A stretch of 64,000 nt of DNA from a virus (IMGVR_UViG_3300032294_002926), one strand, 5' to 3'; positions 14,201-29,177 are shown, numbered from the stretch's first letter. Numbers and translations are program-made. Notes: generated from the letters alone by a model not told the origin.

Positions 14201-14209
14201 ATAAATATT

Positions 14210-15407: not shown

Positions 15408-15434
15408 AGAGGTCTTGACAAGACCTCTTTTTTA
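15408..15434 (+). terminator. Rho-independent terminator (agaggtctt-gaca-aagacctct + T6)
   Basis: Perfect 9-bp stem and T-run. Confidence 0.6.
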
Positions 15435-15526
15435 TGATTAGAATAGGTTTGTTACCGATGGTGAATACGTTATAACTAAAAACTTTTAGAGACTCTTAAA
15501 AAGCCTTAAGAAAAAAATAAATATTC

Positions 15527-15967: not shown

Positions 15968-16248
15968 TTGCTCAAGTAATATTTATGAGTCTTGACAGAA
16001 TCCAGGAAATCATGGTAACGTCATAGCAGTCACTCAAAAAATATGAATTATAGTGAAGTCTTATCGGATACATATGAATGGGTAAATTTAAGAATTGAAA
16101 CTTTGAACTTAAAAAATCGAAAAGAGGATGCAGATTCTTTAAGAATTGAATTTTATGAATGGTTAAACGAGGATATCTCATGTCACGATATTTTCTTTAT
16201 TTAATATTATCTAAAAACTAAATAATTAAGAGTTTCATTTTCATCGAA

Positions 16249-16758
16249 ATGATTGGGCCAAATAAAAGACCACAAGACTTTGGTTTTAAAAAAGGTGATA
16301 GTCATTTAATCGTCAATGATATTAAAGAAACCATTAAAGGATTTAATTTTGAAGGTAAACTTTTATGGGAACTTCCTGCTTTAGCAAGAGGCCAGGGAAG
16401 TGATTATGAATATAAGTATACTAATACAGATACTCCACCAGGTCTTTACAAGATTTCTACCATTTATAAAGATTACGAAAATAATCCAAATCCTGCCTAT
16501 GATCGAACTTTAATGGCATATGGATGGTATAGTTTTGATTTAATCGATTTAGAAGGACAAGAAGGTAGATATTCTCGTGGTGGAATTATGATTCACGGTG
16601 GAGGTTCTGCTTGTGGATGGCCTGGTGCCTGGGATCCTTATCAGACATTATATTCTACTCATGGATGTGTTCGTCTCAAGAATATTCATTTAAGAGATTA
16701 TATTTTACCTCTTACAAAAAAAGGAACCGTTTATGTTTCCGTTTATCAAGAAGGTTGA
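16249..16758 (+). CDS. L,D-transpeptidase (YkuD) catalytic-domain protein
   Basis: IHGGGSACGWPGAWDPYQTLYSTHGCVRLKN gives the H...SHGC(V/I)RL catalytic signature. Confidence 0.65.
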   Translation: MIGPNKRPQDFGFKKGDSHLIVNDIKETIKGFNFEGKLLWELPALARGQGSDYEYKYTNTDTPPGLYKISTIYKDYENNPNPAYDRTLMAYGWYSFDLIDLEGQEGRYSRGGIMIHGGGSACGWPGAWDPYQTLYSTHGCVRLKNIHLRDYILPLTKKGTVYVSVYQEG

Positions 16759-16869
16759 ATCATCTAATTTTAAAAAAGTAATTTTAGACCAAATTCAAAA
16801 ACTTATGAATGAAGGTAATATAGAAGAAGCGGAGTTTCTTTATAAAAAATATTTTTTAGAAAAAAAGAA

Positions 16870-17256
16870 CTAATTTTTAGGATTTCGAATATGAGTATCT
16901 CTGGTAGTAAAATCTCTATTCCTTCCTCTGTTTGATTCAAAACCATGTGATTTATAAAACTTTGCCAGTTTTGCTTTTTTTCCTTTTTCTGGTGCTTGAT
17001 TTAATGTAATTCTTTTTCCTTGCTTATCTGCATATTTTGTCAATCCTTTCATAATTCTTCCTCCAATTCCTTTGTTTCTTTTTTCTGGAGGTAACCAAAT
17101 ATTATTTAAACGAATATCGTCTGTTGAAGTATGATGTGACGCATCTACATTAACTCCACGATGTTTTTTGGAATAAGCAGAAGATATTTTGTTCAAAACT
17201 TCTTTGGGTGATTTTGCTGCTTTTGCTTCCGAGATGAATTGTGAATATGTTTTCAT
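16870..17256 (-). CDS. Basic protein with a GNAT-like acetyltransferase motif; a 36-aa K/G-rich micro-ORF (17262-17370) lies upstream with an ATGA overlap
   Basis: RNKGIGGRIMKGLTKYADKQGKRITL resembles GNAT motif A (R/Q-x-x-G-x-G/A). Confidence 0.4.
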   Translation of the reverse strand: MKTYSQFISEAKAAKSPKEVLNKISSAYSKKHRGVNVDASHHTSTDDIRLNNIWLPPEKRNKGIGGRIMKGLTKYADKQGKRITLNQAPEKGKKAKLAKFYKSHGFESNRGRNRDFTTRDTHIRNPKN

Positions 17257-17586
17257 TTTCTTTTACCACCATTTTTTGCTTTTTTTGCCGTTGCATTGCC
17301 TTGATTTTGTTTATGTCGTTTATCACCAGAATTCCCTTTCTTTCCTTTATTCGGGGATTTTGACATTTTTATGATCACATTGTTACATACTATTTATTTT
17401 AGAGTCCACTTTCATAACTGGTTGACGTTATTGACAGATTCTAAATACTGGTATATTATGAGTTCACTCAGATAAAACTGAGTTTTCGTTATGAGTCATT
17501 GATTGACTTTTAGAGCCGTGGAGATTGCCTTCTGAAAAGAAGGATGTGCGCTTTCTTTATACGGATGTAGAGTTCTATTTACCCTA

Positions 17587-18225
17587 ATGCTTAAAACACT
17601 CACAAATGTAACCGTTGCACTTTTGAGCACGGTTGTAACATCAACGGCAATGCTGCCAACACCTAGTTTTGCAACTTCTTCGAATATTTTACAAGAAGTT
17701 ACATCTAAAGAGACAGGACTACCGAATACCAAAATTGGTGTTCCCGTAAAACCAAAAGCAAAACGATTAATTTGTAAGAGTTGTAATCGAAATGAGATTG
17801 TAACTTTAAATTTCCTTCAGGATCATGGCATCACCGATAAAAAGGCACTGGCCACAATCATGGGAAATATAAGACAAGAATCAACTTTTATTCCAAATAT
17901 ATGTGAAGGTGGATCCAGGGTCCCCTATCATCAGTGTAAATCTGGTGGAGTGGGAATTTTACAATGGACAGACCATACGCGATATTATGGGTTGGGTAGA
18001 TTCGCTGCCCGTATTGGAGGTGATCCATCATCTCTAGACACTCAATTACGTTATATGATGCACGAAATTGATTGGAAAAACATTGAACAACGAATGAAAA
18101 CTCCGGGCGGAAGTATCGAATACTATATGCGTTTAGCACGAACATGGATTCGATGGGGGCATAAAGGTCCAAGAACCGATTATGCTTATGATTATGTAAA
18201 ACGAATAGGTTTCTCTGAAACCTGA
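17587..18225 (+). CDS. Secreted peptidoglycan-hydrolase-like protein (phage-tail-lysozyme-like GNIxxES motif) with a signal peptide
   Basis: N-terminal signal peptide MLKTLTNVTVALLSTVVTSTAMLPTPSFA; ALATIMGNIRQESTFIPN resembles the phage tail lysozyme (PF18013-like) motif. Confidence 0.45.
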   Translation: MLKTLTNVTVALLSTVVTSTAMLPTPSFATSSNILQEVTSKETGLPNTKIGVPVKPKAKRLICKSCNRNEIVTLNFLQDHGITDKKALATIMGNIRQESTFIPNICEGGSRVPYHQCKSGGVGILQWTDHTRYYGLGRFAARIGGDPSSLDTQLRYMMHEIDWKNIEQRMKTPGGSIEYYMRLARTWIRWGHKGPRTDYAYDYVKRIGFSET

Positions 18226-18394
18226 TGTAAATGAGACACTTTTCATGAGTGTCTCACTCCAAGGCGGCAGACTAGAATCTGCATAAGGGGGGATCCAAAT
18301 CCCCCATGCCTACTTGTCAATTGTCTGACTTTATGTTATGATGATGCTGCAATTAAATACGCTCGCGTAGCCCAGCGGAAGAGGCAGTGGACTT

Positions 18395-19233
18395 ATGAAA
18401 AAAATGAGCCTCATTTGAGAAATCTTATGAGTGTAATTCCTCAAATTCGGTGAAACCTGTAAAATGGCAATACCGAGCCAAGCATCGTAAGATGAAGGTG
18501 TAGAGACTATTTTCTAATAATTAAAACCACATCTAGAATGTAGGAAAGAACAATGACAACTAAACGAGCAAAAAGTCTTTTATTAGCTATGTCCATTGGT
18601 GATGGAACAGTTCGCAAGGATAGTCCAGAACTTCAAATTGGTCATAGTGTAAAACAAAAAGATTATTGTCAGCAAAAAGCAAAACTTCTTGGAGAATGCC
18701 TAGAACGAAACATTAATACTCATCAAAAAACATATGGTGATTATGATTGTGTTCGTTTTAGTGTTTATCATCCATATTTAAAATTTGTTAGAAATTGGTT
18801 GTATAAAAACAATCAAAAAACTCTCACTATTAAAGTTTTGAGAAGGCTAACAGACGAAGCAATTGCTATTTGGTATATGGATAATGGAAGTCTTTATACT
18901 AAAAAAAGAAATGGAATTCCTCACGCATTTGAACTTGTTATTTCAACTTGTTGTTCTACAATAGAAGAAGCACAACCAATTTGTGATTTCTTTTATGAAA
19001 GATATGAAGTTAAAATGAAAATTAAAAAAATGAAAGGAGGATTTTCCATTCGTTGCGGAACACAAAATGCTCGTAAGTTAATTTCTATTTTAGAACCTTA
19101 TTGTATGTCTGGAATGGAATATAAGTTCAAACCAATTTTAGAAAACTAGACGGGGAACACCTAAACCGAAAGGTATGGTGAAGATATAGTCCAGACCACA
19201 AACCGAAAGGGTAGTGAAAACTATAGTGGTATG
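18395..19233 (+). mobile_element. Putative group I intron (839 nt) in the tRNA anticodon loop, carrying a LAGLIDADG homing endonuclease ORF
   Basis: Exon halves flank it precisely; terminal G before exon 2; internal repeated aaaccgaaagg elements. Confidence 0.55.
18553..19149 (+). CDS. LAGLIDADG homing endonuclease (two-motif, single-chain) encoded in the tRNA intron
   Basis: LLLAMSIGDGTV (motif 1) and AIAIWYMDNGSL (motif 2). Confidence 0.7.
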   Translation: MTTKRAKSLLLAMSIGDGTVRKDSPELQIGHSVKQKDYCQQKAKLLGECLERNINTHQKTYGDYDCVRFSVYHPYLKFVRNWLYKNNQKTLTIKVLRRLTDEAIAIWYMDNGSLYTKKRNGIPHAFELVISTCCSTIEEAQPICDFFYERYEVKMKIKKMKGGFSIRCGTQNARKLISILEPYCMSGMEYKFKPILEN

Positions 19234-19305
19234 AAAATCCACCCAGGGTCGGTTCGAATCCGACCGCGAGTATTGAACTGGTAAACATAATAAATAACCT
19301 ATGAT

Positions 19306-20013
19306 GTGTTTACCAGTATGAAATATTCATATAATATAGAAGAATTCAAAAAAGCAGTAGAAGAAAGTTATTCTATTGCTCAGGCACTAACAAAATTAGG
19401 TTTATCTCCTAAAGGTGGAAATTATCGTGTGTTTAAAAAATTTAAAAAACTTTATGAAATAGATACTTCACATTTCACTGGTCAAGGTCATTTAAAAGGA
19501 AAAACTCACAACTTTAATACAATACCATTAAGTGAAATACTTGTTAAAAATTATGAGTATAGTTCTAATAGGTTGAGAAAAAGATTAATTTCTGAAGGAT
19601 TAAAACAACACAAATGTGAATGTTGTAAATTAACTAAATGGTTAGGTGAACTTATACCATTAGAACTAGATCATATCGATGGAGATCATTGTAATAATAC
19701 TTTAGAAAATTTAAAAATATTATGTCCCAATTGTCATGCAAAAACTCCAACATATCGAGGTAAAAATAAAAAGAATAAAAACTCTGAAACTACGTCAACA
19801 AAAAAAGTTTATAATTGCTCTTTCTGTCAAATTGAATTAAAGACAAGATGTAAAACTGGTCTCTGTAAATCCTGTTTTTCGAAATCACAAAGAAAAGTGA
19901 AAAGACCTTCAAAAGAACAATTGATTAAAGAAATTCAAGAAAGTTCTTATCTTACTGTAAGTCGAAAATATGGAGTTAGTGATAATGCCATTCGTAAATG
20001 GATTAATAAATAA
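19306..20013 (+). CDS. HNH homing endonuclease (free-standing) with a C-terminal helix-turn-helix-like tail
   Basis: ELDHIDGDHCNNTLENLKILCPNCHA is a classic HNH with Zn-coordinating Cys pairs. Confidence 0.7.
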   Translation: MFTSMKYSYNIEEFKKAVEESYSIAQALTKLGLSPKGGNYRVFKKFKKLYEIDTSHFTGQGHLKGKTHNFNTIPLSEILVKNYEYSSNRLRKRLISEGLKQHKCECCKLTKWLGELIPLELDHIDGDHCNNTLENLKILCPNCHAKTPTYRGKNKKNKNSETTSTKKVYNCSFCQIELKTRCKTGLCKSCFSKSQRKVKRPSKEQLIKEIQESSYLTVSRKYGVSDNAIRKWINK

Positions 20014-20258
20014 AATAGGTCTAAGTCAACTCAGTCCAATAACTAGTATTAAAACAAAGGTAATAATTTTATAATTAAAACCTATTAATTCTATTTACTT
20101 TTGATAACTCTTTCTTTTAGATCCACTTTTTAAACTGACACAAACTACTTGATTCAGAGTAAGAATGGTGGTATTCTTAGAAAGTTGGTGAGGAATTTGT
20201 CATTTTCCATCACCGCTACTTGATTATCTAAAGTTTATACTTTATGATTTTCAATCAT

Positions 20259-20331
20259 GGGCGTATAGTGAAGTGGATCATCACACGGCTCTTCTAAAGC
20301 CTTATCCCTGGTTCGAATCCAGGTACGCCTG
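20259..20331 (+). tRNA. tRNA-Arg (anticodon UCU)
   Basis: Acceptor gggcgta/tacgcct; D-arm gtga-agtggatca-tcac; anticodon loop cuUCUaa; T-arm cctgg-ttcgaat-ccagg. Confidence 0.7.
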
Positions 20332-20392
20332 TTAACAACATAATATAAGTTGTTGATCTTAATTAATCTGAAATATTCATGAGGTTATTTGA

Positions 20393-20716
20393 ATGTCCGA
20401 CAAATTCATTCTATCTTCTAGTCTAAATGATCTGCGTAATCAATGGTTATCTGAACCTGAATATGCAACTCTAGGAATGAGTAGTGTTTATACGCTCTCT
20501 CAGAATAAACTTGACTCAATGCTTGAATCTGCTATAAAATGGGGAGCAATTGAAGCACTTTTTCATTTCGCAGAAAGAATTGGTGATCACACTTATCGCT
20601 ATCAATGTGAAGGAATGACATATGAAGAAAAATCTGATGATTTATTTCAATATGTTCTTCATCTTGAAAAGAGAGCAAAAGAAGAAGTACTGTACAACAT
20701 GAATCATCATGAATAA
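20393..20716 (+). CDS. Hypothetical protein
   Basis: ORF with a start; overlaps the downstream PTH2 gene start. Confidence 0.4.
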   Translation: MSDKFILSSSLNDLRNQWLSEPEYATLGMSSVYTLSQNKLDSMLESAIKWGAIEALFHFAERIGDHTYRYQCEGMTYEEKSDDLFQYVLHLEKRAKEEVLYNMNHHE

Positions 20717-21062
20717 TCTTCAACAAGTTATTGTAATGAGAAAAGATTTGAATATGCGTAAGGGTAAAATGATTGCTCAGGCATGCCACGCATCAGTCAA
20801 ATCTATTCTGGAAAATCAGAATGATGATAGAGTTAAAAACTGGATTGAAAATAATTATACTAAAATCTGCGTTTCCGTAAATTCGGAAAAAGAACTTCTT
20901 TCAGTTTATGAAAAAGCAAAATCATCAAATATGATATGCACATTAGTCGAAGATCTCGGATTCACTGAGTTCAATGGAATTCCCACTCTTACATGTTGTT
21001 CTATTGGACCCGCAACAAAAGATGAACTTCAGACTATTACTGGAGATCTTAAATTACTTTAA
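20709..21062 (+). CDS. Peptidyl-tRNA hydrolase, PTH2 (archaeal/eukaryotic type) family
   Basis: VIVMRKDLNMRKGKMIAQACHAS matches the PTH2 N-terminal core (..VVRTDLGMGKGKIAAQCSHAA..). Confidence 0.7.
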   Translation: MNNLQQVIVMRKDLNMRKGKMIAQACHASVKSILENQNDDRVKNWIENNYTKICVSVNSEKELLSVYEKAKSSNMICTLVEDLGFTEFNGIPTLTCCSIGPATKDELQTITGDLKLL

Positions 21063-21072
21063 ATTTAAATAA

Positions 21073-22254
21073 ATGAGCACATTTATAGGAAAAGATTCTG
21101 AATTGATGAAAGGTGTGATTGAAGTTTTTCCTCAGACCGATAAATTCAATAATCATCTTAGAATTAAACTTGGTTTTGATCCAACATCAGATCGTTTACA
21201 TTTGGGGCATCTAGTTCTTTTAAATAAAATTAAACAATTTCAATCTCATGGGCATCATGCCTGTATTATCATTGGAGATTTTACTGCTAAAGTGGGAGAT
21301 CCTACCGGAAGAAATGAAACAAGACCACAACTTTCTGATGAAGAAATTGATTTCAATGTAAACTCTATTTTAAAAATTATAAAAAAATTTCTTGATCCAG
21401 AAGTAGAAATTTTCAAAAATAGTTCTTGGCTATTTAAACAAACTCCAGATTCTCTATTATCTTTAATGAGTCTCTTTACAGTAAATCAAATGCTTGCCAA
21501 AGAAGACTTTGGAAATCGATATAAAGATGGCAATCCTATTGGAATGCATGAGTTTATGTATCCTCTTCTTCAGGGTCTAGATAGTTTAATTATAAAGTCT
21601 GATGTAGAAATTGGTGGTAGTGATCAAAAATTTAATATTGGTATTGGTCGAGATATACAAAAAAAGTTTAATTCTTCGGAAAAATCTCAAATAGGAATTC
21701 TTATGCCAATTCTTCAAGGAAGAGATGGATCATCTAAAATGTCAAAGTCAAAGAATAACACAATAAATCTTGACGATGAACCTTTAGAAATGTATTCTAA
21801 ATTGGAGAAAATTCCTGATCATATTGTCTTAGATTATTTGAACTTGCTGACAGATGTTCCGCAATCCGAATATCCCAAAGAAAATAGAGAGAGGCAAAGG
21901 TTCATGGCATTTAAAGTGACCGAATCTATACATGGATTAGATAAAACTCAAGAAGCACAAAAAATTTCAGAGAAGATTGTACTTAAAGGTCAAACTTCAG
22001 ATGACATGAATATTCCTGAGATTTATATTCCAGAAAATTTGGAATTTCCTATTCCTTTATGTGTCTTTATGTTTATGATGGGAATGTCTACAAGTATAAG
22101 TGATTCTAAACGTAAGATTCAATCTGGTGCAGTGAGACTTAATGATGAAAAAATTGTGGATGTCGAAAAAATTCTCGATACTGCACAAAGTATGAATGGT
22201 GTTATACTCAGAACAAGCCGAACAAATTTTAAAAAAATTCTTTTGAAATCATGA
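21073..22254 (+). CDS. tyrS: Tyrosyl-tRNA synthetase (class I aaRS) with a C-terminal S4-like domain
   Basis: GFDPTSDRLHLGHLV (HIGH), GDFTAKVGDPTGRN, KMSKSK (KMSKS); C-terminal SDSKRKIQSGAVRLNDEKIVD is S4-like. Confidence 0.8.
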   Translation: MSTFIGKDSELMKGVIEVFPQTDKFNNHLRIKLGFDPTSDRLHLGHLVLLNKIKQFQSHGHHACIIIGDFTAKVGDPTGRNETRPQLSDEEIDFNVNSILKIIKKFLDPEVEIFKNSSWLFKQTPDSLLSLMSLFTVNQMLAKEDFGNRYKDGNPIGMHEFMYPLLQGLDSLIIKSDVEIGGSDQKFNIGIGRDIQKKFNSSEKSQIGILMPILQGRDGSSKMSKSKNNTINLDDEPLEMYSKLEKIPDHIVLDYLNLLTDVPQSEYPKENRERQRFMAFKVTESIHGLDKTQEAQKISEKIVLKGQTSDDMNIPEIYIPENLEFPIPLCVFMFMMGMSTSISDSKRKIQSGAVRLNDEKIVDVEKILDTAQSMNGVILRTSRTNFKKILLKS

Positions 22255-23024
22255 AAGTTTACATATTATCTGATCTTCATTTAGAACACTTCTCGTCATT
22301 TCAGGTTTTTAATCCTGGAGAAGGTGATATTTTAATTTTGGCTGGAGATATTCTTCGTGTAAAACATTTTAAGAAGAATGGATATCTTCATGCGGTATAT
22401 GATAGATTCTTAAATGATTGTAGTGAAAACTATAATCATATTCTTTATGTAATGGGTAATCATGAAAGTTATGGGTATCATTATCAAAAAACAAAGAATA
22501 AATTAAAGAAACATCTCCCATATAATTTTCATTTACTTGATAATGATACTGTTACTATTAATAATTGGAACTTTATTGGATTTACATTATGGACTGATTT
22601 TAGAAATGAAAATCCTTTAGAAATGATGGATGCCCAAGTTACAATGAATGATTATAAAGTAATTCGCTGTGATTCAAGTTTTCGTAAATTAACAGTGAAT
22701 GATACTCTTGAATTTCATAAAAGAAGTAAAGAATATCTCTTAAAACAATTGGAAATTTTTAAAGAGAATGTTTTCGTGATTAGTCATCATACTCCTAGTT
22801 ATCAATCTATACCGGATGAGTATAAAAATTCAGCAAATGGTGCATATAGTAATAATCTAGACGATTTAATTATTACAAATTCTCAGATTAAGTATTTTAT
22901 TCACGGACATACTCATAATTTTTTTGACTATATGATTGAACAATGTAGAGTTATTTGTAATCCAGTGGGTTATCCTGGACAGGTCACTGGTTATGATTCC
23001 AAACTCGTCTTAGAACTGACTTGA
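22251..23024 (+). CDS. Calcineurin-like metallophosphoesterase
   Basis: Metal-ligand motifs SDLHLEH, GDI, GNHE, GHTH. Confidence 0.65.
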   Translation: MKVYILSDLHLEHFSSFQVFNPGEGDILILAGDILRVKHFKKNGYLHAVYDRFLNDCSENYNHILYVMGNHESYGYHYQKTKNKLKKHLPYNFHLLDNDTVTINNWNFIGFTLWTDFRNENPLEMMDAQVTMNDYKVIRCDSSFRKLTVNDTLEFHKRSKEYLLKQLEIFKENVFVISHHTPSYQSIPDEYKNSANGAYSNNLDDLIITNSQIKYFIHGHTHNFFDYMIEQCRVICNPVGYPGQVTGYDSKLVLELT

Positions 23025-23085
23025 CGGGATTGATTTTAAATGGTATTATATGTCAGTGACTTTAAAAACCTACTCTTAAAATTCT

Positions 23086-23565
23086 TTGGTAAAAATCATG
23101 ATCACCAAATCTCAACTTGAACAAAAGATTACTGAACTTGAATCCGAACTTCAGGAATTCAAGTCTCAGTTGAATAATTATTCTGAAATTACACTAGAGA
23201 ACTCCAAACCCGGTGATACTCTATCTAATGGAACTGTAGTGATTCATAAGGAATGCAATCGGATTTTGATTGCAGCACCAAAAGAGACTGTAGTGTACTC
23301 TAAATGGACTCCAGAATTTCCAGAAGTATTTGAATCCCTTAAGTCTCATGGATTCATTCCTTCTCAGTGGCATGTTCCTACTATACAGGAAATGAGACTT
23401 GCTTATGAGAATGCAAAAGAATCTTTCTCCGCCGCCAATTATTGGTCTTCTGCGGAGACTAGTGCTACTTGCGGTTGCATTCTGTACTTTGGCTATGGTA
23501 ATACGTACGGCGGCACTAAGCCGAACACCTTCTGCGTGCGTGCCTTCCGGTGGGTGACAGTTTAA
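23086..23565 (+). CDS. DUF1566 (Lcl C-terminal-like) domain protein with an N-terminal coiled coil; paralog 1
   Basis: WHVPTIQEM...YWSSAETS...FCVRAFRWVTV matches the DUF1566 consensus. Confidence 0.5.
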   Translation: MVKIMITKSQLEQKITELESELQEFKSQLNNYSEITLENSKPGDTLSNGTVVIHKECNRILIAAPKETVVYSKWTPEFPEVFESLKSHGFIPSQWHVPTIQEMRLAYENAKESFSAANYWSSAETSATCGCILYFGYGNTYGGTKPNTFCVRAFRWVTV

Positions 23566-23632
23566 TTACTGTCCTAAGAATTTTCAGAGATCTTTAAGAA
23601 TCACTATACTATCTTTAAATTAAACTTCAATC

Positions 23633-24100
23633 ATGATCACCAAAACTCAACTTGAACAAAAGATTACTGAACTTGAATCCGAACTTCAGGAATTCAAGTC
23701 TCAGTTGAATAATTATTCTGAAATTACACTAGAGAACTCCAAACCCGGTGATACTTTGTCCGATGGAACCGTTGTTATCTTCAAAGAATGTAATCGAATT
23801 CTGATTGCTGCTCCAAAAGAGACTGAAGTGTACTCTAAATGGACTCCAGAGTTCTCAGAAGTCTTTGAATCTCTGAAATCTCATGGATTCACCCCTTCTC
23901 AGTGGCATGTTCCCACGATTGAGGAACTTAAACTCGCATATAAGAATGCAAAAGACTCTTTCTCCTCCGCCTATTATTGGTCTTCTACGGAGATTAGTGC
24001 TGCTATCGGTTGTTCTCTGTACTTTGGCTTTGGTAATACGTACAACTTCACTAAGACGGGCACCTTCTGCGTGCGTGCCTTCCGGTGGGTTACTATTTGA
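23633..24100 (+). CDS. DUF1566 domain protein; tandem paralog 2 (~75% identical to 23086..23565)
   Basis: Near-identical N-terminus ITKTQLEQKITELESELQEFKSQLNNYSEITLENSKPGDTL; C-terminal FCVRAFRWVTI. Confidence 0.5.
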   Translation: MITKTQLEQKITELESELQEFKSQLNNYSEITLENSKPGDTLSDGTVVIFKECNRILIAAPKETEVYSKWTPEFSEVFESLKSHGFTPSQWHVPTIEELKLAYKNAKDSFSSAYYWSSTEISAAIGCSLYFGFGNTYNFTKTGTFCVRAFRWVTI

Positions 24101-24460
24101 TTCTTGTTACTTATTTTTTGAAGTATAATTTTTATACTTTAATTAAATAAATAATATGACAGATTTTCAACTGTATGAATAGCGACAAACTAACAACGAG
24201 TAGCAGGATTCAGAATCTTGATTCAACGCTATCTGCACTGAAATCAACATCATCGGCGCTGCAATCCAGCAATAAGGATTTGTCCTTATCCGTATCACAG
24301 ATGGAGTTGCGGTTGAAGATGCGGGGTCACCGGATACAGAGGACCCAGACAACTAGTGATTGAGATACATCACAAAGAACATTGACAATTAAATATAAAT
24401 CCTTTATTATTGAGTTCGTAATTCAATGCTAGAATAACACCCTTTTAACTCTTTCATTAA

Positions 24461-24534
24461 GCGGAATTCGTCTAATGGTAAGACAAGAGATTCCAAACCT
24501 CTTGATGCGAGTTCGATTCTTGCATTCCGTGCCA
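24461..24534 (+). tRNA. tRNA-Trp (anticodon CCA), with encoded CCA
   Basis: gcggaat..attccgt acceptor; D-arm gtct-aatggta-agac; anticodon loop uuCCAaa; T-arm gcgag-ttcgatt-cttgc. Confidence 0.8.
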
Positions 24535-24535
24535 T

Positions 24536-24609
24536 ACCCAATTAGATCAGCGGACTAGAGTACTTGGTTACGACCCAAGGTGCCCCAGGTTCAAATCCTG
24601 GATTGGGTG
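24536..24609 (+). tRNA. tRNA-Arg (anticodon ACG)
   Basis: Acceptor acccaat/attgggt; anticodon arm cttgg-ttACGac-ccaag; T-arm ccagg-ttcaaat-cctgg. Body closely resembles bacterial tRNA-Arg(ACG). Confidence 0.75.
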
Positions 24610-24656
24610 TAGGGTGTTATGTTTTTCAGTTTCTCGATGCCCTCTAAAAATAGTAG

Positions 24657-24743
24657 AAACTGATATGGAAGTGTGGCAGAGTCTGGTTTATTGCGTTTGT
24701 CTTGAAAACAAATGAGGGTAACACCTCCACTAGTTCGAATCTA
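24657..24743 (+). tRNA. tRNA-Ser (anticodon UGA), type II
   Basis: Acceptor ggaagtg/cacttct; anticodon arm tttgt-cuUGAaa-acaaa; long variable arm; T-arm ctagt-tcgaatc-(ctag). Confidence 0.75.
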
Positions 24744-24759
24744 GTCACTTCTGCTTACT

Positions 24760-25365
24760 TTATAATTTATTAAATATAATATTTTCTATTATATTTAAAA
24801 TCTTTATAAAGTTTTGAATTTTATTGTACTTTATCCAAGATGTATCTATGACGCAAAGTTCAATCTTTTCTTCTAGACAAGACTGAAACTTACGATTATC
24901 GTTATTTTGGATTTGATTCAATTTTTCTTGCCCATATATAGGTTCATAATGAAAAATTCCGTTAAGTTCAAACGCCAATTTGAGTTCAGGTATATAAATG
25001 TCTAATTCGGAATTGATAGCATCTTTTCGATTGAAAAGAAACTCATAGGAATACCTTTTGGTCAATTCTTCTTGTAAGAATAACTCTAGTTTGGAAACTC
25101 TTGTTCCTTGAGTTTTGTGAGTATTGTTATAAGTTGCAGCACAACTTCTGGAACAAAAATCATTTTTTGTTTTCTTTTGGTCTACCGGTCTTTTGTAAAA
25201 TTTTTTTCCGCAGTATTTACACTCTTTTATATTGTTTTTTCTATCACTTCTTTGATGATTATTGAAACAATCTCTGGAGCAAAAATTTCTATTTTTAGTT
25301 CTTTTAATTTCATATGGTGCTTTTTTAAAAATTTTATTACAGTGTAGACATTTTACGTCTATCAT
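24760..25365 (-). CDS. Putative homing endonuclease: N-terminal tandem Cys4 zinc fingers plus a C-terminal Vsr/DUF559-like PD-(D/E)xK domain; same family as ORF 1166..1882
   Basis: CLHCNK..CSRDC and CKYCGK..CSRSC; ELDIYIPELKLAFELNGIFHYEP...IELCVID parallels FIPDINLIIEYHGFRFHDN of the ORF in the intein gap. Opposite strand, embedded among tRNA genes. Confidence 0.55.
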   Translation of the reverse strand: MIDVKCLHCNKIFKKAPYEIKRTKNRNFCSRDCFNNHQRSDRKNNIKECKYCGKKFYKRPVDQKKTKNDFCSRSCAATYNNTHKTQGTRVSKLELFLQEELTKRYSYEFLFNRKDAINSELDIYIPELKLAFELNGIFHYEPIYGQEKLNQIQNNDNRKFQSCLEEKIELCVIDTSWIKYNKIQNFIKILNIIENIIFNKL

Positions 25366-25444
25366 TTATAATATAAGGAAAGTGATGTATTATTTATATA
25401 TTTTCAATTCTTTTACTTTCCGTTAATATTTAAAATTTCATTAT

Positions 25445-25520
25445 GGCGTAGTAGACAAATTGGATAAAGTCTCCACACTTTCAATGTGGATTTTTGAGGG
25501 TTCGAGTCCCTTCTACGCTT
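25445..25520 (+). tRNA. tRNA-Glu (anticodon UUC)
   Basis: Acceptor ggcgtag/ctacgct (G1-U72); anticodon arm ccaca-cuUUCaa-tgtgg perfect; T-arm gaggg-ttcgagt-ccctt. Confidence 0.6.
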
Positions 25521-25642
25521 TTTAGGTTTCTAGATAACCTAAACGTATAAGATTATCGTTAAATCTTCGACGACCTCCTCACAGTGTCGTAATATGCGAG
25601 GTGCTTAACGTTAAGATTGTTCCTCTTTATTGGGGAACTTCA

Positions 25643-25714
25643 CCAGGAGTAAGTCAGAGGTAGACGGCACCGTTTGGGGCGGTGAAGGCATTGGTTCGAT
25701 CCCAATCTTCTGGA
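25643..25714 (+). tRNA. tRNA-Pro (anticodon UGG)
   Basis: C1-G72 acceptor ccaggag/cttctgg; anticodon arm caccg-uuUGGgg-cggtg; T-arm attgg-ttcgatc-ccaat. Confidence 0.65.
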
Positions 25715-25790
25715 CTTGAAGAATACTAGTAAAACTTCAACCGATTTTACATGCGTCGGATAATATTCTAAAATATAGAATGCATTGTGT

Positions 25791-25875
25791 GCTGGAGTTA
25801 GCGTAGAGGTCGAACGCACGGCACTTGTAACGCCGCTCCGAAAGGACACCGCAGGTTCAAATCCTGTCTCCAGCT
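25791..25875 (+). tRNA. tRNA with a long variable arm (type II-like); anticodon loop CUUGUAA, so isotype unresolved (UGU/Thr by register, GUA/Tyr if shifted); anticodon stem has an A31-C39 mismatch
   Basis: Perfect 7-bp acceptor gctggag/ctccagc; T-arm gcagg-ttcaaat-cctgt; 15-nt variable region ctccgaaaggacacc; loop identical to T4 tRNA-Thr CUUGUAA. Confidence 0.5.
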
Positions 25876-26010
25876 TGACTTTTTATCAGAGAGATTTATG
25901 ATGAATTTTTAAAATTTATACATGAATCTTGACTAAAGGTCTCACATATATTATGATTATAAAATCAAAGATAGACTTTGATTAACAACTATTTCTAAGG
26001 AGTTTAGAAA

Positions 26011-27036
26011 ATGAAAAAATACGATGTAATTGTTTTTATTGGTAGATTTCAACCATTTCATAATGCTCATTTAGAGATCATTAAACGAGCAACAGAACTT
26101 GCAGAACACATTGCAATTATTGTTGGATCTGCAAATCAACCCAGAACATTTAAGAATCCTTTCTCTTATGAGGAAAGAGAAGATTTAATCAATAAAACTT
26201 TAATGATGATGAAGATGAACACTAATTACAGTATTCATCCAAACCAAGATACTATTTACAATGACGATTCTTGGGCAACAAGAGTTCAAAATGTTGTAAA
26301 CAAAATTAATCCTTTTGAAAGTTCTAGAATTGGAATCATTGGGCATAAAAAGGACGAGTCTTCTTTCTACCTTGATATGTTTCCTCAATGGAACTTAATT
26401 GAAGTTCCTTTGATTGAAGAATTAAGTGCATCTCAGATTCGTCAACTTTATTTTAAACGAGACTTTAATTCAAATTTTATTAAGAATGTTCTTCCTCAAG
26501 AAGTTCTGGACTTTCTCAATAAATTTTCTCAAACAGAAGATTATCAACAAATTCTGAAAGAGATTAATTTTGTTGAGAAATACAAATCTCAATATGCTTC
26601 TTTCCCATATCCTCCAACCTTCGTGACTGTGGATGCTGTTATAGTGCAATCGGGGCATATTCTAATGATTCGTCGTCGTGCAGAACCTGGAAAAGGACTT
26701 CTTGCTCTACCTGGTGGATTCTTAGACGCTTTGAGTGATAAATCTTTAGAGGATGCTATGATACGGGAGGTAAGGGAAGAAACTCAACTCAAGGTGCCTG
26801 CTCCAGTTCTTCGTGGTAGTATTGAGGAAGCAAAAGTTTTTGATGCTATTGAACGTAGCACAAGAGGTAGAACAATCACTCATGCATTTCACATCAAACT
26901 TCCTAACGGAGAACTTCCAAAAGTGAAGGGAGGAAGTGATGCTACATCTGCAAAGTGGATTCCAATTTCTAAAATCACTCCAAATGAGTGCTTTGAAGAC
27001 CACTATGAAATCATTAATTATTTTACTGGAGTCTAA
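26011..27036 (+). CDS. Bifunctional NMN adenylyltransferase / Nudix ADP-ribose pyrophosphatase (NadM-Nudix, NatV-like)
   Basis: N-terminal VIVFIGRFQPFHNAHLEII (HxGH nucleotidyltransferase); C-terminal Nudix box GGFLDALSDKSLEDAMIREVREETQL. Confidence 0.8.
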   Translation: MKKYDVIVFIGRFQPFHNAHLEIIKRATELAEHIAIIVGSANQPRTFKNPFSYEEREDLINKTLMMMKMNTNYSIHPNQDTIYNDDSWATRVQNVVNKINPFESSRIGIIGHKKDESSFYLDMFPQWNLIEVPLIEELSASQIRQLYFKRDFNSNFIKNVLPQEVLDFLNKFSQTEDYQQILKEINFVEKYKSQYASFPYPPTFVTVDAVIVQSGHILMIRRRAEPGKGLLALPGGFLDALSDKSLEDAMIREVREETQLKVPAPVLRGSIEEAKVFDAIERSTRGRTITHAFHIKLPNGELPKVKGGSDATSAKWIPISKITPNECFEDHYEIINYFTGV

Positions 27037-27567
27037 ATGAAAACCATCAAAGGAGACTTAATCAAACTTGCCGAACAAGGCGAGTTTAATATGATTGTGC
27101 AAGGATGCAATTGCTTTCATACTCAATCTTCTGGGTTGGCAGGACAACTTGTATCAAAGTATCCACAAGTATTAGAAGCAGATAAAACACAATCCAAATA
27201 TGGAGACAAAGAAAAATTAGGAACTTGGAGTGTTGCTGAGATTGGTAATTTTACTGTCATTAACGCATATACTCAATACTCTTTTAGTCGTAAAAAAGAT
27301 GTTTTTGAGTATGATGCTTTCGATAAATTTCTAAATGACTTTACGAATATGATAGAATATTATGATTCAATGGCAAATTTTGACTGGAAACCAGATGGAA
27401 ATAATGTTCGTGTTCGTGAATTTAAAAGATTTAGAATTGGTTTTCCTCAAATCGGTGCTGGACTTGCTGGTGGCGATTGGAGTAGAATTTCCAAGATGAT
27501 TGAAAAGTTTTCAGAAGATGTCTCTGATTATGCTGACGTAACTGTGGTGGAATATCAACCTTACTGA
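27037..27567 (+). CDS. Macro-domain (ADP-ribose binding/processing) protein
   Basis: GDLIKLAEQGEFNMIVQGCNCFHTQSSGLAGQL parallels the macro-domain GDIT..DAIVNAAN..GGGGVAGAI core. Confidence 0.55.
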   Translation: MKTIKGDLIKLAEQGEFNMIVQGCNCFHTQSSGLAGQLVSKYPQVLEADKTQSKYGDKEKLGTWSVAEIGNFTVINAYTQYSFSRKKDVFEYDAFDKFLNDFTNMIEYYDSMANFDWKPDGNNVRVREFKRFRIGFPQIGAGLAGGDWSRISKMIEKFSEDVSDYADVTVVEYQPY

Positions 27568-27711
27568 ATTTTGTTACTAGTTACAAGGAAAATATTGGGT
27601 CCATGTTAAATAACATGTCCTTTGATTAATTTGATAGTCAGGTGTAAAGACTATAAAACACGAACTAACGATAGACGTTAGTTTATTCATTAACATTTTA
27701 AGGAGTTTAAA

Positions 27712-28248
27712 ATGACTATTAATAAAACAATTCTGTTGAACACCGATTCTTACAAGTTTTCGCAATACAATCAATATCCCGAAGGGACTACGAATGTATA
27801 TTCCTATGTAGAAAGTCGTGGAGGTACTTGGAACCAAACTGTTTTCTTCGGACTTCAAATCTTTCTGAAAGAGTATCTGTCTAATCCTATTACTCAGGAT
27901 GATATTGATACCGCAGAACTTATTACTCAAGCACACGGAGAACCTTTCAATCGTGAAGGTTGGGAGTATATTCTTCGTGAACACGGTGGTAAGTTGCCTA
28001 TTCGTATTAAAGCAGTTCCCGAAGGTTCTGTAATTCCTGTAAAGAATGTTCTTGCGACTGTTGAGAACACTGACCCTCAATGTGCCTGGATTACAAGTTA
28101 CATTGAGACTTCACTTCTCAGGAGTATTTGGTATGGAACTACTGTTGCTACCAACTCTTATGAGAGCAAGAGGATTATTCACGATTACTTGGTGAAGACT
28201 GGAGACCCAAGTTTGATTGAGTTCAAACTGCACGATTTCGGTGCTTAA
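27712..28248 (+). CDS. nadV: Nicotinamide phosphoribosyltransferase (NadV/NAMPT), exon 1; reading frame runs into an in-frame stop inside the intron
   Basis: LLNTDSYKFSQY...KLHDFG aligns with the NAMPT N-terminus up to the conserved HDFG(Y/A)RGVSS junction. Confidence 0.8.
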   Translation: MTINKTILLNTDSYKFSQYNQYPEGTTNVYSYVESRGGTWNQTVFFGLQIFLKEYLSNPITQDDIDTAELITQAHGEPFNREGWEYILREHGGKLPIRIKAVPEGSVIPVKNVLATVENTDPQCAWITSYIETSLLRSIWYGTTVATNSYESKRIIHDYLVKTGDPSLIEFKLHDFGA

Positions 28249-29171
28249 TTAACTTCGGGCACCTAACTTTGTGAACTGCTGGAACCCCTAAGTTGCTTAG
28301 GTAATATGGAAATCAGCATCCAAGACTACTATTTTAGTAGTAAGGTTCAGAGACCATCGAAAAGGTTATTTACAAATAACACTTAGTAGAGTACACTCAA
28401 GCGAGTGGAAGCGCAAAGGCGATACTATGTATCGTAAGATATGGTCCAATCTTCATTGAAAAATGAAGCAGTTCATACTCAGCATAAATACTTCCAGACC
28501 AAAATTGTAAAATATTTATGTTGAAACTATTAGAAACTATACCTAGTTTAGAAACATTTAAGGGGTATTCGATTTCAGATGATGGTAGAATCTTTTCACA
28601 TAAGACTAACAAATTTCTGAAAACGAGTATAAGAATGGGAAATGGATGTGCTTATGGAAGAATTGGATTAAACGATTCTAACGGAATCCGTAAAACAATT
28701 TCAATTCATAGACTCGTTTGTTTAGCATTTAAATATAACCCCAACCACAAAAATCTAACTGTGAATCACATAGACGAAAACACTTTTAATAATCATATTG
28801 ATAACTTAGAGTGGATGCCTCTTTCTGAAAACATTAGATATTCTCAGGCAAACAAAAGTTATGTCGGAGACCCAGATAAACTTACATTAGAGTTTAATGA
28901 AGGAAACTACACGGTACAGGAGTTTGCCAAAAAGTATAATACTCCATTAAATACTATGTGGGATATTCTAAACAAATTAGGTTCAGTCAAAAACAACAAA
29001 AAAAGAAGAGTCTTTGGTAAAAAAATACGACTTGAAATTGCTTTAATGAGAAAATCAGGAAAAGCACTAAAAGAAGTATCTGAAAAGTATCAATGTTCTC
29101 AATCTTTTGTTTCTTTAGTTTTTAAAGAGTATGAACGGGGTATGCTTAGCGAACATGCCTGAATAACTCCG
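28246..29171 (+). mobile_element. Putative group I intron (~0.92 kb) splitting nadV, carrying an HNH homing endonuclease ORF
   Basis: The NAMPT alignment breaks after LHDFG(A) and resumes at RGVSSFESAGIGG ~925 nt later. ~270 nt non-coding structured leader; boundaries follow U (5') and G (3'). Confidence 0.55.
28518..29162 (+). CDS. HNH homing endonuclease (HNH_3 / AP2-domain type, I-HmuI-like) inside the nadV intron
   Basis: SIHRLVCLAFKYNPNHKNLTVNHIDENTFNNHIDNLEWMP is the HNH_3 core; C-terminal helix-turn-helix-like basic tail. Confidence 0.7.
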   Translation: MLKLLETIPSLETFKGYSISDDGRIFSHKTNKFLKTSIRMGNGCAYGRIGLNDSNGIRKTISIHRLVCLAFKYNPNHKNLTVNHIDENTFNNHIDNLEWMPLSENIRYSQANKSYVGDPDKLTLEFNEGNYTVQEFAKKYNTPLNTMWDILNKLGSVKNNKKRRVFGKKIRLEIALMRKSGKALKEVSEKYQCSQSFVSLVFKEYERGMLSEHA

Positions 29172-29177
29172 CGAGGA

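What the first reader, a model, noticed from the sequence alone, without database searches (positions are those of the whole stretch)
19306..25880. Translation module: tyrosyl-tRNA synthetase + PTH2 peptidyl-tRNA hydrolase + at least 8 tRNA genes in one locus
A complete class I TyrRS (HIGH, KMSKS, S4 tail) sits next to a PTH2-type peptidyl-tRNA hydrolase. Both are flanked by tRNA-Arg(UCU), Trp, Arg(ACG), Ser, Glu, Pro, a type II tRNA and the intron-containing tRNA. Aminoacyl-tRNA synthetases are essentially unreported in cyanophages; they are known mainly from giant viruses and a few jumbo phages. PTH2 is the archaeal/eukaryotic-type enzyme. Together they suggest the phage buffers host translation, for example against tRNA-targeting defences or AT-rich codon demand.
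Basis: partly seen in the sequence, partly recalled or inferred. Interest (0 to 1): 0.8.

Follow-up and report, generated by a model that had tools for sequence, protein, structure and literature searches.

The report
Cyanophage tyrosyl-tRNA synthetase, PTH2 and tRNAs
A large T4-like virus of cyanobacteria carries an apparently working tyrosine-charging enzyme copied long ago from cyanobacteria, a tRNA-recycling enzyme and eight tRNA genes; this is real and new for this virus family, but the same kind of kit is already known from other very large phages.

Summary
ORF 21073-22254 is a full-length bacterial-type TyrRS (TIGR00234 336 bits, HLGH and KMSKS present, 69 of 72 near-invariant positions kept, model aligns end to end with T. 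thermophilus TyrRS). ORF 20709-21062 is a PTH2 hydrolase with its catalytic Lys/Asp/Thr. Eight tRNAs lie at 18361-25875, one split by a group I intron carrying a LAGLIDADG gene. There is no tRNA-Tyr: the 85-nt type II tRNA has anticodon UGU.

The window is a Kyanoviridae cyanomyovirus (psbA, synteny with S-SRM01). The module sits in a 13.8-kb accessory island rich in homing endonucleases that S-SRM01 lacks.

The TyrRS belongs to a phage-only clade (99.5% bootstrap) nested within cyanobacterial TyrRS. That clade also occurs in other uncultured cyanomyoviruses at different genome positions, and is unrelated to the Rak2-like jumbo-phage TyrRS. No cultured cyanophage in GenBank has it.

The most likely function is keeping up the supply of charged tRNA during infection. 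The tRNAs match the phage's A-ending codons. Tyrosine demand alone does not predict which phages carry TyrRS, so a counter-defence role stays open.

Verdict: new member of a known kind, moderate interest.

The parts
18361..18394 (+). tRNA-Leu(UAA), 5' exon
   Evidence: In silico splicing gives a tRNA with anticodon UAA.
18395..19233 (+). Group I intron in the anticodon loop of tRNA-Leu(UAA)
   Evidence: Rfam Intron_gpI at 18385-18555, 41.8 bits, E = 4e-9, covering P1-P7. A weak second piece lies at 18985-19215. The ORF displaces the 3' part of the intron.
18553..19149 (+). LAGLIDADG homing endonuclease inside the intron
   Evidence: PF03161, 83.8 bits.
19234..19272 (+). tRNA-Leu(UAA), 3' exon; only a 5-nt variable loop
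   Evidence: T-loop motif at 19251.
19306..20013 (+). Free-standing HNH homing endonuclease
   Evidence: phrog_10822, 183.6 bits; weak Pfam HNH_3 hit.
20258..20332 (+). tRNA-Arg(UCU)
   Evidence: ARAGORN; Rfam 58.6 bits. AGA is 56% of Arg codons.
20393..20716 (+). 107-aa ORF of unknown function; overlaps the PTH2 start by 8 nt
   Evidence: No family hit. The only homologue among 5.8 billion proteins is its own 97% variant. It is present in the independent contigs.
20709..21062 (+). PTH2-type peptidyl-tRNA hydrolase
   Evidence: PF01981 117.9 bits and TIGR00283 112 bits. 89 bits to PDB 2zv3. K20, D82 and T86 align with K18, D86 and T90 of S. solfataricus Pth2, PDB 1xty.
21073..22254 (+). Tyrosyl-tRNA synthetase, bacterial type 2, in the cyanophage clade
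   Evidence: Family and motif evidence. Model pLDDT 85.3 with a full-length match to 9sdf and 1h3e. Tree.
22251..23024 (+). Calcineurin-like metallophosphoesterase; its start overlaps the TyrRS stop (ATGA)
   Evidence: PF00149, 42 bits; phrog_1649, 194.8 bits. Co-linear with TyrRS in all identical contigs.
24461..24534 (+). tRNA-Trp(CCA)
   Evidence: A sigma-70-like site with an 11/12 match lies at 24382-24410.
24535..24610 (+). tRNA-Arg(ACG)
24667..24754 (+). tRNA-Ser(UGA), type II
24760..25365 (-). Zinc-finger/endonuclease-like ORF on the opposite strand, within the tRNA cluster
   Evidence: zf-FCS, 27 bits; PHROG HNH/homing-endonuclease families.
25445..25520 (+). tRNA-Glu(UUC)
   Evidence: GAA is 82% of Glu codons.
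25643..25715 (+). tRNA-Pro(UGG)
25791..25875 (+). 85-nt type II tRNA with anticodon UGU (Thr by anticodon); not tRNA-Tyr
   Evidence: ARAGORN structure: 3-bp variable stem with a GAAA loop, G1-C72, C2-G71, U73. Rfam 39 bits.

Best explanation
This is an accessory 'translation supply' block in a roughly 236-kb T4-like cyanomyovirus (Kyanoviridae). It sits in a 13.8-kb hyperplastic island, rich in homing endonucleases, between a lysozyme-like gene and a porin gene.

Shown here:
- The TyrRS is a complete, catalytically intact class I enzyme. Its lineage was captured from cyanobacteria and has since evolved as a phage-only clade.
- The PTH2 keeps its catalytic residues.
- The tRNAs carry anticodons for the A-ending codons this 32%-GC phage prefers.

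Inferred:
- The block is transcribed early by host RNA polymerase, from sigma-70-like sites upstream of the tRNAs.
- The tRNAs add decoding capacity.
- The TyrRS aminoacylates host tRNA-Tyr(GUA), because no phage tRNA-Tyr is present in the window. The enzyme retains the Asp that reads G34 and the C-terminal arm-binding domain. This would keep Tyr-tRNA available once host gene expression declines, for a proteome that is about 4.8% Tyr.
- PTH2 frees tRNAs trapped as peptidyl-tRNA or N-blocked aminoacyl-tRNA so they can be recharged.

Net effect: the pool of charged tRNA, a limiting host resource, is kept up by the phage itself.
For: - Enzyme integrity. D249 aligns with T. thermophilus D259.
- Not an assembly artefact: the same ORF107-PTH2-TyrRS-phosphoesterase order is found on 9 contigs from several samples. 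The block is flanked by genes collinear with S-SRM01. TyrRS GC3 is 0.193 and PTH2 GC3 is 0.237, against a window mean of 0.197.
- Long-term selection: the phage clade spans 45-61% identity yet keeps the near-invariant residues. Phage-clade monophyly has 99.5% bootstrap support, and the clade nests within cyanobacteria at 100%.
- Codon match: AGA is 56% of Arg, GAA 82% of Glu, GGA 44% of Gly, CCA 44% of Pro and TTA 30% of Leu. Tyr is 4.84% of residues, against about 2.0-2.4% in a small cyanobacterial sample.
- Carriers with long contigs are 236-280 kb. [quoted passage not shown]
- Related phages place TyrRS near tRNA arrays, CCA-adding enzyme and RNA ligases.
Against: - Tyrosine demand does not predict carriage. 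S-SRM01 lacks TyrRS yet has 4.46% Tyr, while TyrRS-carrying contigs at 47-50% GC have only 2.8-3.5% Tyr.
- TyrRS and PTH2 are adjacent only here. In L096 they lie 8 kb apart. In L094 TyrRS sits next to psbA. In L112 and L114, PTH2 occurs with no TyrRS in the stretches retrieved. They are therefore not an obligate pair.
- Why Tyr, rather than any other amino acid, is unexplained.
- No activity, expression-timing or host data are available.
- The promoter-like sites are not more frequent than in shuffled sequence (51 against 40.8 +/- 6.9).
- The cyanobacterial Tyr estimate comes from a small, non-random sample.
Confidence: 0.58

Rival explanations
1. Counter-defence is the main selective driver. 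The island would protect or rebuild the tRNA pool against host abortive-infection effectors: anticodon nucleases that destroy tRNA-Tyr or other tRNAs, GNAT toxins that acetylate aminoacyl-tRNA, and enzymes that block the 3' CCA end. In this reading the phage tRNAs replace cleaved host tRNAs, PTH2 strips N-blocked aminoacyl-tRNA, extra TyrRS recharges or shields tRNA-Tyr, and the coupled phosphoesterase heals modified ends.
For: - Retron-Eco7 degrades tRNA-Tyr, and T5 escapes by over-expressing its own tRNA-Tyr (PMC11555353).
- Phage tRNAs are reported to evade tRNA-targeting defences (PMC10264068).
- Pth detoxifies TacT-acetylated aminoacyl-tRNA (PMC4942678).
- PTH2 in jumbo phages has been proposed to rescue ribosomes holding cleaved tRNAs (PMC7824862).
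- The island also holds an NAD salvage block (NAMPT, NMNAT-Nudix, Macro-like).
- Relatives place TyrRS beside RNA ligases and a CCA-adding enzyme.
- Sporadic carriage that is independent of Tyr content fits an arms-race gene better than a supply gene.
Against: - The window holds no tRNA-Tyr. That would be the obvious counter to a tRNA-Tyr nuclease, and only L007 has one.
- No RNA ligase or PNK was found in the island ORFs scanned.
- PADLOC gives no informative hit.
- No tRNA-Tyr-targeting system is known to me in picocyanobacteria.
- All of the support is by analogy with E. coli and Salmonella systems.
Confidence: 0.27
2. The block is passive cargo. TyrRS and PTH2 are carried along in a hotspot of homing endonucleases and introns and persist with little or no benefit to the phage.
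For: - Six endonuclease genes and two group I introns lie in or beside the island.
- TyrRS sits at different positions in related phages.
- The island is absent from the closest cultured relative.
Against: - 69 of 72 near-invariant TyrRS residues and all motifs are kept across a clade that has diverged to 45-61% identity.
- Composition is fully ameliorated to the phage genome.
- Reading frames are intact on 9 independent contigs.
- PTH2 is conserved at 66-79% in relatives.
Confidence: 0.1
3. The TyrRS moonlights as a group I intron splicing cofactor, as the fungal mitochondrial CYT-18 TyrRS does. It would help the phage's own introns, one of which sits in a tRNA 1.8 kb upstream.
For: - At least two group I introns are in the window.
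- CYT-18 structures appear among the fold matches, but no better than other TyrRS (rank 48-50).
Against: - Relative to cyanobacterial TyrRS, the phage clade has short deletions and only a single-residue insertion. CYT-18 activity depends on fungal-specific insertions and an N-terminal extension (my own knowledge).
- Related TyrRS-carrying loci (L094, L096) gave no sign of an accompanying intron, although this was not scanned systematically.
Confidence: 0.03

Closest known systems
Cyanobacterial TyrRS (Prochlorococcus, Synechococcus, Pseudanabaena; TIGR00234, T. thermophilus-like type 2)
   Same: - 40-45% identity over the full length.
- Same motifs and the same C-terminal domain.
- The phage clade nests inside the cyanobacterial radiation.
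   Different: - The phage copies form their own clade (99.5% bootstrap).
- They are 377-404 aa against about 400-417 aa.
- They have short deletions before HIGH and near residue 110.
TyrRS of Rak2-like jumbo phages (GAP32, Serratia BF, CBB, fHe-Yen9-04; phrog_9270)
   Same: A phage-encoded class I TyrRS in a genome over 200 kb that also carries tRNA genes.
   Different: - Only 26-29% identity and about 420 aa, annotated as Listeria-like.
- Excluded from the cyanophage clade in 100% of bootstraps, so an independent capture.
- Neighboured by GroES rather than by PTH2 or tRNAs.
aaRS and tRNA sets of huge phages (Al-Shayeb et al. 2020, PMC7162821)
   Same: [quoted passage not shown]
   Different: Those phages carry up to 15 aaRS and 67 tRNAs and belong to other clades. 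Here a single aaRS sits in a Kyanoviridae genome.
Phage PTH2 (mycobacteriophages Myrna/Baka, Sinorhizobium phiM12 group, jumbo phages; PMC7824862)
   Same: 50-55% identity, the same about 115-aa single-domain enzyme, phrog_1866.
   Different: Closer copies (66-79%) exist only in uncultured S-SRM01-like cyanophage contigs.
Microcystis jumbo phage PhiMa05 (PMC8093824)
   Same: A cyanophage over 200 kb reported with aaRS-like genes.
   Different: - Not a member of Kyanoviridae.
- The genes are annotated as TrpRS, ThrRS and LysRS at 25-30% identity.
- No TyrRS match to it was found.
T5 tRNA-Tyr against retron-Eco7 (PMC11555353)
   Same: A phage countermeasure centred on the tyrosine branch of translation.
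   Different: T5 supplies the tRNA. This phage supplies the synthetase and, within the window, no tRNA-Tyr.
Mimivirus TyrRS (my own knowledge)
   Same: A virus-encoded, active TyrRS.
   Different: It is the archaeal/eukaryal type in a eukaryotic virus, and is unrelated in origin.

Membership tests
Class I tyrosyl-tRNA synthetase, bacterial type (TIGR00234 / PF00579) | Whole-protein score above the curated equivalog cut-off | tested here: met
   TIGR00234 scores 336.2 bits against a cut-off of 113.8, covering residues 21-390. TrpRS and archaeal TyrRS models fall far below their cut-offs.
Class I tyrosyl-tRNA synthetase, bacterial type (TIGR00234 / PF00579) | HIGH and KMSKS signature motifs | tested here: met
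   H43-L-G-H46 and K222-M-S-K-S226 are invariant in an 18-sequence alignment.
Class I tyrosyl-tRNA synthetase, bacterial type (TIGR00234 / PF00579) | Tyrosine-pocket residues (Asp78, Tyr169, Gln173, Asp176 in B. stearothermophilus numbering, from my own knowledge) | tested here: met
   D76, Y163, Q167 and D170 are invariant. 69 of 72 near-invariant columns across 179 sequences are kept.
Class I tyrosyl-tRNA synthetase, bacterial type (TIGR00234 / PF00579) | Anticodon-binding helical domain plus a C-terminal S4-like domain that binds the long variable arm | tested here: met
   - Pfam SYY_C-terminal is below threshold (24.4 against 27 bits).
- The model has pLDDT 79-94 over residues 320-393.
- It aligns over about 406 columns with the T. 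thermophilus TyrRS-tRNATyr complexes 9sdf and 1h3e.
- D249 aligns with T. thermophilus D259.
Class I tyrosyl-tRNA synthetase, bacterial type (TIGR00234 / PF00579) | Tyrosylation of tRNA-Tyr | not testable with these tools
   Needs an aminoacylation assay or a complementation test.
PTH2 peptidyl-tRNA hydrolase (PF01981 / TIGR00283) | Profile score above curated cut-offs | tested here: met
   PF01981 scores 117.9 against 23 and TIGR00283 112 against 82. NF003314 scores 117.2, just below its cut-off of 126.
PTH2 peptidyl-tRNA hydrolase (PF01981 / TIGR00283) | Catalytic Lys, Asp and Thr (K18, D86, T90 of S. solfataricus Pth2, from my own knowledge) | tested here: met
   K20, D82 and T86 align with them in the phmmer alignment to 1xty.
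PTH2 peptidyl-tRNA hydrolase (PF01981 / TIGR00283) | Hydrolysis of peptidyl-tRNA | not testable with these tools
   Needs an enzyme assay or pth(ts) complementation.
Kyanoviridae (T4-like cyanomyoviruses) | Collinear T4-like replication and nucleotide-metabolism module, plus cyanophage photosynthesis genes | tested here: met
   - 17 window genes from 29 to 18225 are collinear with S-SRM01 at 36-79% aa identity.
- psbA (Photo_RC, 285 bits) is preceded by the PhotoRC-II motif.
- T4-type tail-fibre PHROG families match.
T4-type tRNA repair system (Pnkp + RNA ligase) | Polynucleotide kinase/phosphatase and RNA ligase genes present with the tRNAs | tested here: not met
   None was found among the ORFs of the island and its flanks that were scanned. 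RNA ligases do occur beside TyrRS or PTH2 in relatives L009, L011 and L114. The rest of the roughly 236-kb genome was not seen.
CYT-18-type splicing TyrRS | Lineage-specific insertions and an N-terminal extension that bind group I introns (my own knowledge) | tested here: not met
   The phage clade has deletions and only a 1-residue insertion relative to cyanobacterial TyrRS.

The most novel reading that the evidence does not exclude
The cyanophage TyrRS clade, PTH2, the coupled phosphoesterase and the unusual tRNAs (a type II tRNA with a UGU anticodon, and a short-armed intron-bearing tRNA-Leu(UAA)) together form an anti-defence system. It would keep translation running when cyanobacterial abortive-infection effectors attack tRNA-Tyr or aminoacyl-tRNAs. 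That would make a synthetase itself a counter-defence gene.
Probability: 0.2. Interest if true: 0.7.

Novelty: new member of a known kind. Interest (0 to 1): 0.42.

Why it matters
Cyanomyoviruses are among the most abundant and best-studied marine and freshwater phages. Their known auxiliary genes are mostly metabolic (photosynthesis, carbon, phosphate).

Some of the largest members carry a long-lived, phage-specific lineage of a core translation enzyme taken from cyanobacteria, together with PTH2. This extends the 'translation take-over' theme of huge phages into this family.

It also gives a tractable case for asking why TyrRS in particular is captured repeatedly by unrelated viruses: Rak2-like phages, mimiviruses and now cyanophages.

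The phage clade could serve as a marker for cyanobacterial hosts of uncultured large phages.

Tried and rejected
- Megablast of the locus against GenBank phages: no match.
- Single-protein scan of IMG/VR with the TyrRS: no match. Only the alignment-based scan worked.
- 85-nt tRNA as tRNA-Tyr: rejected. The only well-paired anticodon stem gives UGU, the discriminator is U, and the acceptor has the G1-C72/C2-G71 pairs typical of Thr.
- 18-mer from that tRNA searched in IMG/VR: three hits, all unrelated 55%-GC contigs with no tRNA.
- ORF107: no family in Pfam, NCBIfam, PHROGs or PADLOC. No homologue beyond its own variant. No similarity to the ORF that precedes PTH2 in L096.
- Tyrosine demand as the explanation for TyrRS carriage: weakened, because S-SRM01 without TyrRS has similar Tyr content and GC-richer carriers have less.
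- T4 late-promoter motif TATAAATA: not enriched and absent from the block.
- Sigma-70-like sites: not above shuffled expectation overall.
- 'Acinetobacter phage MD-2021a', the best GenBank 'phage' TyrRS hit: it is bacterial chromosome.
- Assembly chimera or contamination: rejected.

Full report

Yes.

- ORF 21073-22254 (393 aa) matches the tyrS equivalog model TIGR00234 at 336 bits (cut-off 113.8) over residues 21-390, and PF00579 at 236 bits.
- ORF 20709-21062 (117 aa) matches PF01981 (PTH2) at 118 bits and TIGR00283 at 112 bits (cut-off 82).
- ARAGORN and Rfam agree on seven tRNAs between 20258 and 25875.
- A focused Rfam scan finds the 5' core (P1-P7) of a group I intron at 18385-18555, starting inside the anticodon loop (41.8 bits, E = 4e-9). 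The LAGLIDADG ORF 18553-19149 is inserted before the 3' part.
- That makes eight tRNAs in 7.5 kb. The T-loop motif occurs 9 times in the window against 0.17 expected by chance.

One correction. The 85-nt tRNA at 25791-25875 has a long variable arm but anticodon UGU, a U discriminator and G1-C72/C2-G71. It is not tRNA-Tyr, and no tRNA-Tyr exists anywhere in the 64-kb window.

**2. What genome is this?**

- The window is about 32% GC with nearly all genes on one strand.
- It encodes nrdA/nrdB, T4-type tail-fibre proteins and psbA preceded by the PhotoRC-II motif.
- Its genes from 29 to 18225 are collinear with Synechococcus phage S-SRM01 (Kyanoviridae, 241 kb) at 36-79% amino-acid identity. Collinearity resumes at the porin gene at 32059.
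- There is no near-identical genome among the GenBank phages.
- The segment from 18.3 to 32.0 kb is therefore an accessory island. It takes the place of about 2.3 kb in S-SRM01.

The island contains:
- the intron-bearing tRNA-Leu, a free-standing HNH endonuclease and tRNA-Arg(UCU);
- a tightly packed four-gene block: an orphan 107-aa ORF, PTH2, TyrRS and a metallophosphoesterase, with 8-nt and 4-nt overlaps and one 10-nt gap;
- two Lcl_C-domain paralogues;
- six more tRNAs with another endonuclease-like gene on the opposite strand;
- an NMNAT-Nudix fusion and a Macro-like protein;
- a NAMPT gene split by a second group I intron, followed by an HNH gene.

The same four-gene order is found on nine independent contigs from several samples, the longest 235,951 bp. 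The GC3 of TyrRS (0.193) and PTH2 (0.237) matches the window mean of 0.197. This is not a chimera or contamination.

**3. Are the enzymes intact?**

TyrRS:
- It has HLGH (43-46) and KMSKS (222-226).
- It has D76, Y163, Q167 and D170, the counterparts of the B. stearothermophilus tyrosine-pocket residues (that mapping is from my own knowledge).
- All of these are invariant in an 18-sequence alignment.
- Of 72 columns that are near-invariant across 179 TyrRS sequences, it departs at three: V74, T292 and D358.
- Its best solved relatives are the type 2 bacterial enzymes of Acinetobacter and Thermus thermophilus.
- D249 aligns with T. thermophilus D259, which, as I recall, reads G34 of the anticodon.
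- An AlphaFold model (pLDDT 85.3; 79-94 over the C-terminal 70 residues) aligns over about 406 columns with T. thermophilus TyrRS bound to tRNA-Tyr, PDB 9sdf and 1h3e. So the arm-binding tail is present even though the Pfam hit is sub-threshold.

PTH2:
- It aligns end to end with archaeal Pth2 structures.
- K20, D82 and T86 fall on K18, D86 and T90 of the Sulfolobus enzyme (the role of those residues is from my own knowledge).

**4. Where did the genes come from?**

In a search of 5.8 billion proteins, the TyrRS has:
- an identical copy;
- one 61% relative on a phage-like contig (L006);
- a cloud of 377-404-aa proteins at 45-50% identity;
- cyanobacterial enzymes at 40-45%.

Contexts of the 45-50% group are phage-like. 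They consist of runs of small orphan ORFs, methyltransferase, RNA ligases and a CCA-adding enzyme, on contigs of 117-280 kb. Some are plainly relatives of this phage:
- L094 has psbA (81%), then TyrRS (49%), then homologues of window genes at 54.2-55.3 kb.
- L096 has nrdB (78%), TyrRS (46%) and, 8 kb further on, PTH2 (66%).
- The L009/L010 contigs (about 243 kb) resemble Synechococcus phages B3 and B23 (Kyanoviridae, about 244 kb), which themselves lack TyrRS.

The nearest named cellular genomes are all cyanobacteria.

A neighbour-joining tree (179 sequences, 383 columns, 200 bootstraps) gives:

| Grouping | Bootstrap support |
|---|---|
| Phage clade with no named cellular member | 99.5% |
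| Window plus L006 as sisters | 100% |
| Phage clade plus all cyanobacteria, excluding other bacteria | 100% |
| Picocyanobacteria as the nearest cells | 56% |

The TyrRS of Rak2-like jumbo phages (GAP32, Serratia BF) lies far away and is excluded in 100% of replicates.

So the gene descends from the host lineage, but as an old, separate, phage-borne clade. It moves among large cyanomyoviruses and sits at different genome positions.

No Synechococcus, Prochlorococcus or 'Cyanophage' record among the GenBank phages matched it.

PTH2 has 50-55% relatives in mycobacteriophages, the Sinorhizobium phiM12 group and jumbo phages. It has 66-79% relatives in uncultured S-SRM01-like contigs, where it sits beside ferritin and Lcl_C genes as it does here.

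**5. How does it most likely work?**

Shown:
- The tRNA anticodons fit the phage's own codon preferences. AGA is 56% of Arg, GAA 82% of Glu, GGA 44% of Gly, CCA 44% of Pro and TTA 30% of Leu.
- Tyr is 4.84% of residues (87% TAT), against roughly 2.0-2.4% in a small sample of cyanobacterial flanking genes.

Inferred:
- The best sigma-70-like sites lie just upstream of tRNA-Leu, tRNA-Arg, the Trp-Arg-Ser group, tRNA-Glu and the type II tRNA. No T4 late-promoter motif is in the block. This suggests early transcription. The site count is not above shuffled expectation, so this evidence is weak.
- The TyrRS would charge host tRNA-Tyr(GUA).
- PTH2 would recycle tRNAs trapped as peptidyl-tRNA or N-blocked aminoacyl-tRNA.
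- Together with the tRNAs, the phage would hold up the pool of charged tRNA as host expression fades.

This agrees with what is reported for phages over 200 kb: more translation genes with larger genome size, and aaRS related to but distinct from host enzymes (PMC7162821).

Against a pure 'tyrosine demand' reading:
- S-SRM01 has 4.46% Tyr and no TyrRS, while GC-richer carriers have only 2.8-3.5% Tyr.
- TyrRS and PTH2 are adjacent only in this phage.

**6. Rivals.**

- **Counter-defence (0.27).** This fits the sporadic distribution, the NAD-salvage neighbours and the RNA ligase and CCA-enzyme neighbours in relatives. It also fits published cases: retron-Eco7 destroying tRNA-Tyr with T5 supplying tRNA-Tyr (PMC11555353), Pth reversing TacT acetylation (PMC4942678), and PTH2 proposed for rescue of ribosomes with cleaved tRNAs (PMC7824862). 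But the window lacks a tRNA-Tyr and any RNA ligase or PNK, PADLOC is uninformative, and every link is by analogy.
- **Passive hitch-hiking in an endonuclease-rich hotspot (0.10).** This is contradicted by long-term residue conservation and full compositional amelioration.
- **A CYT-18-like splicing role (0.03).** This is unlikely, because the phage clade has deletions rather than insertions relative to cyanobacterial enzymes.

**7. Comparison and novelty.**

Phage-encoded TyrRS (phrog_9270), PTH2 (phrog_1866) and tRNA arrays are established in jumbo and huge phages (PMC7162821, PMC7824862). aaRS-like genes have been annotated in the Microcystis jumbo phage PhiMa05 (PMC8093824), and PTH2 in putative Microcystis viruses (PMC12542629).

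Three things appear new:
- these genes in Kyanoviridae;
- a monophyletic, cyanobacterium-derived, phage-only TyrRS clade that is independent of the Rak2-like one;
- the tight ORF107-PTH2-TyrRS-phosphoesterase block.

I found no paper describing TyrRS in a cyanophage. This is a new member of a known kind, of moderate interest.

Noticed in passing
window 27712-30014: The NAMPT gene appears split. The NAMPT_N part is at 27712-28248, a group I intron at 28184-28468 (Rfam 61 bits), an HNH/NUMOD4 endonuclease ORF at 28518-29162, and the NAPRTase-domain part at 29178-30014. With the NMNAT-Nudix fusion (26011-27036) and a Macro-like protein (27037-27567), this forms an NAD-salvage block next to the tRNA cluster.
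   Followed up: partly
window 18361-19272: The spliced tRNA with anticodon UAA (Leu) has only a 5-nt variable loop, which is a type I shape. Bacterial tRNA-Leu normally has a long variable arm. I found no paper on a group I intron in a phage-encoded tRNA gene.
   Followed up: partly
window 25791-25875: An 85-nt tRNA combines a long variable arm (3-bp stem, GAAA loop) with anticodon UGU, G1-C72/C2-G71 and U73. Which synthetase charges it is unclear. An exact 18-mer search in IMG/VR found no relative.
   Followed up: partly
window 46342-48189: A 120-nt tRNA-like RNA at 48070-48189 has good acceptor, D and T arms but a large insert in the anticodon arm. It lies about 200 nt after a DUF2828/DUF7788 gene (phrog_850, 'RNA-binding protein'). 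This may be a Ro/Y-RNA-like pair.
   Followed up: no
window 50125-50198: ARAGORN calls a tRNA-His with the unusual anticodon AUG. The anticodon stem has two mismatches and the Rfam score is modest (40.5 bits), so this may be a degenerate or non-canonical tRNA. It sits with tRNA-Gly(UCC) just upstream of the PhotoRC-II motif and psbA.
   Followed up: partly
window 10120-12867: nrdA is 915 aa against 766 aa in S-SRM01. Weak HINT/intein hits fall at residues 322-453, between the N-terminal and barrel domains, so a mini-intein is likely.
   Followed up: partly
window 23086-24100: Two tandem Lcl_C-domain paralogues (159 and 155 aa) have GC3 of 0.38-0.41, about 3 sd above the other window genes. That suggests a more recent acquisition. 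A homologue sits next to PTH2 in L114.
   Followed up: partly
window 15527-31823: Homing-endonuclease genes are unusually dense: GIY-YIG SegE-like 15527-15967(-), LAGLIDADG 18553-19149, HNH 19306-20013, endonuclease-like 24760-25365(-), HNH 28518-29162 and HNH 31344-31823.
   Followed up: partly
L114 1711-2928 and 9179-10366: A related cyanophage contig carries an EF-Ts-domain gene, an RNA ligase and ClpS within 9 kb of its PTH2. These are further translation and proteostasis genes in this lineage.
   Followed up: no
L121 (GenBank CAKLQH020000026.1): The best GenBank 'phage' match to the TyrRS, 'Acinetobacter phage MD-2021a', has tyrS flanked by erpA, anmK and a dehalogenase. This is bacterial chromosome filed as phage.
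   Followed up: yes
L006 1-3575: The closest relative of the window's TyrRS (61% identity) lies on a 56%-GC phage-like contig next to an AcrF31-family gene. The window is 32% GC, so the pair spans very different genome compositions.
   Followed up: no
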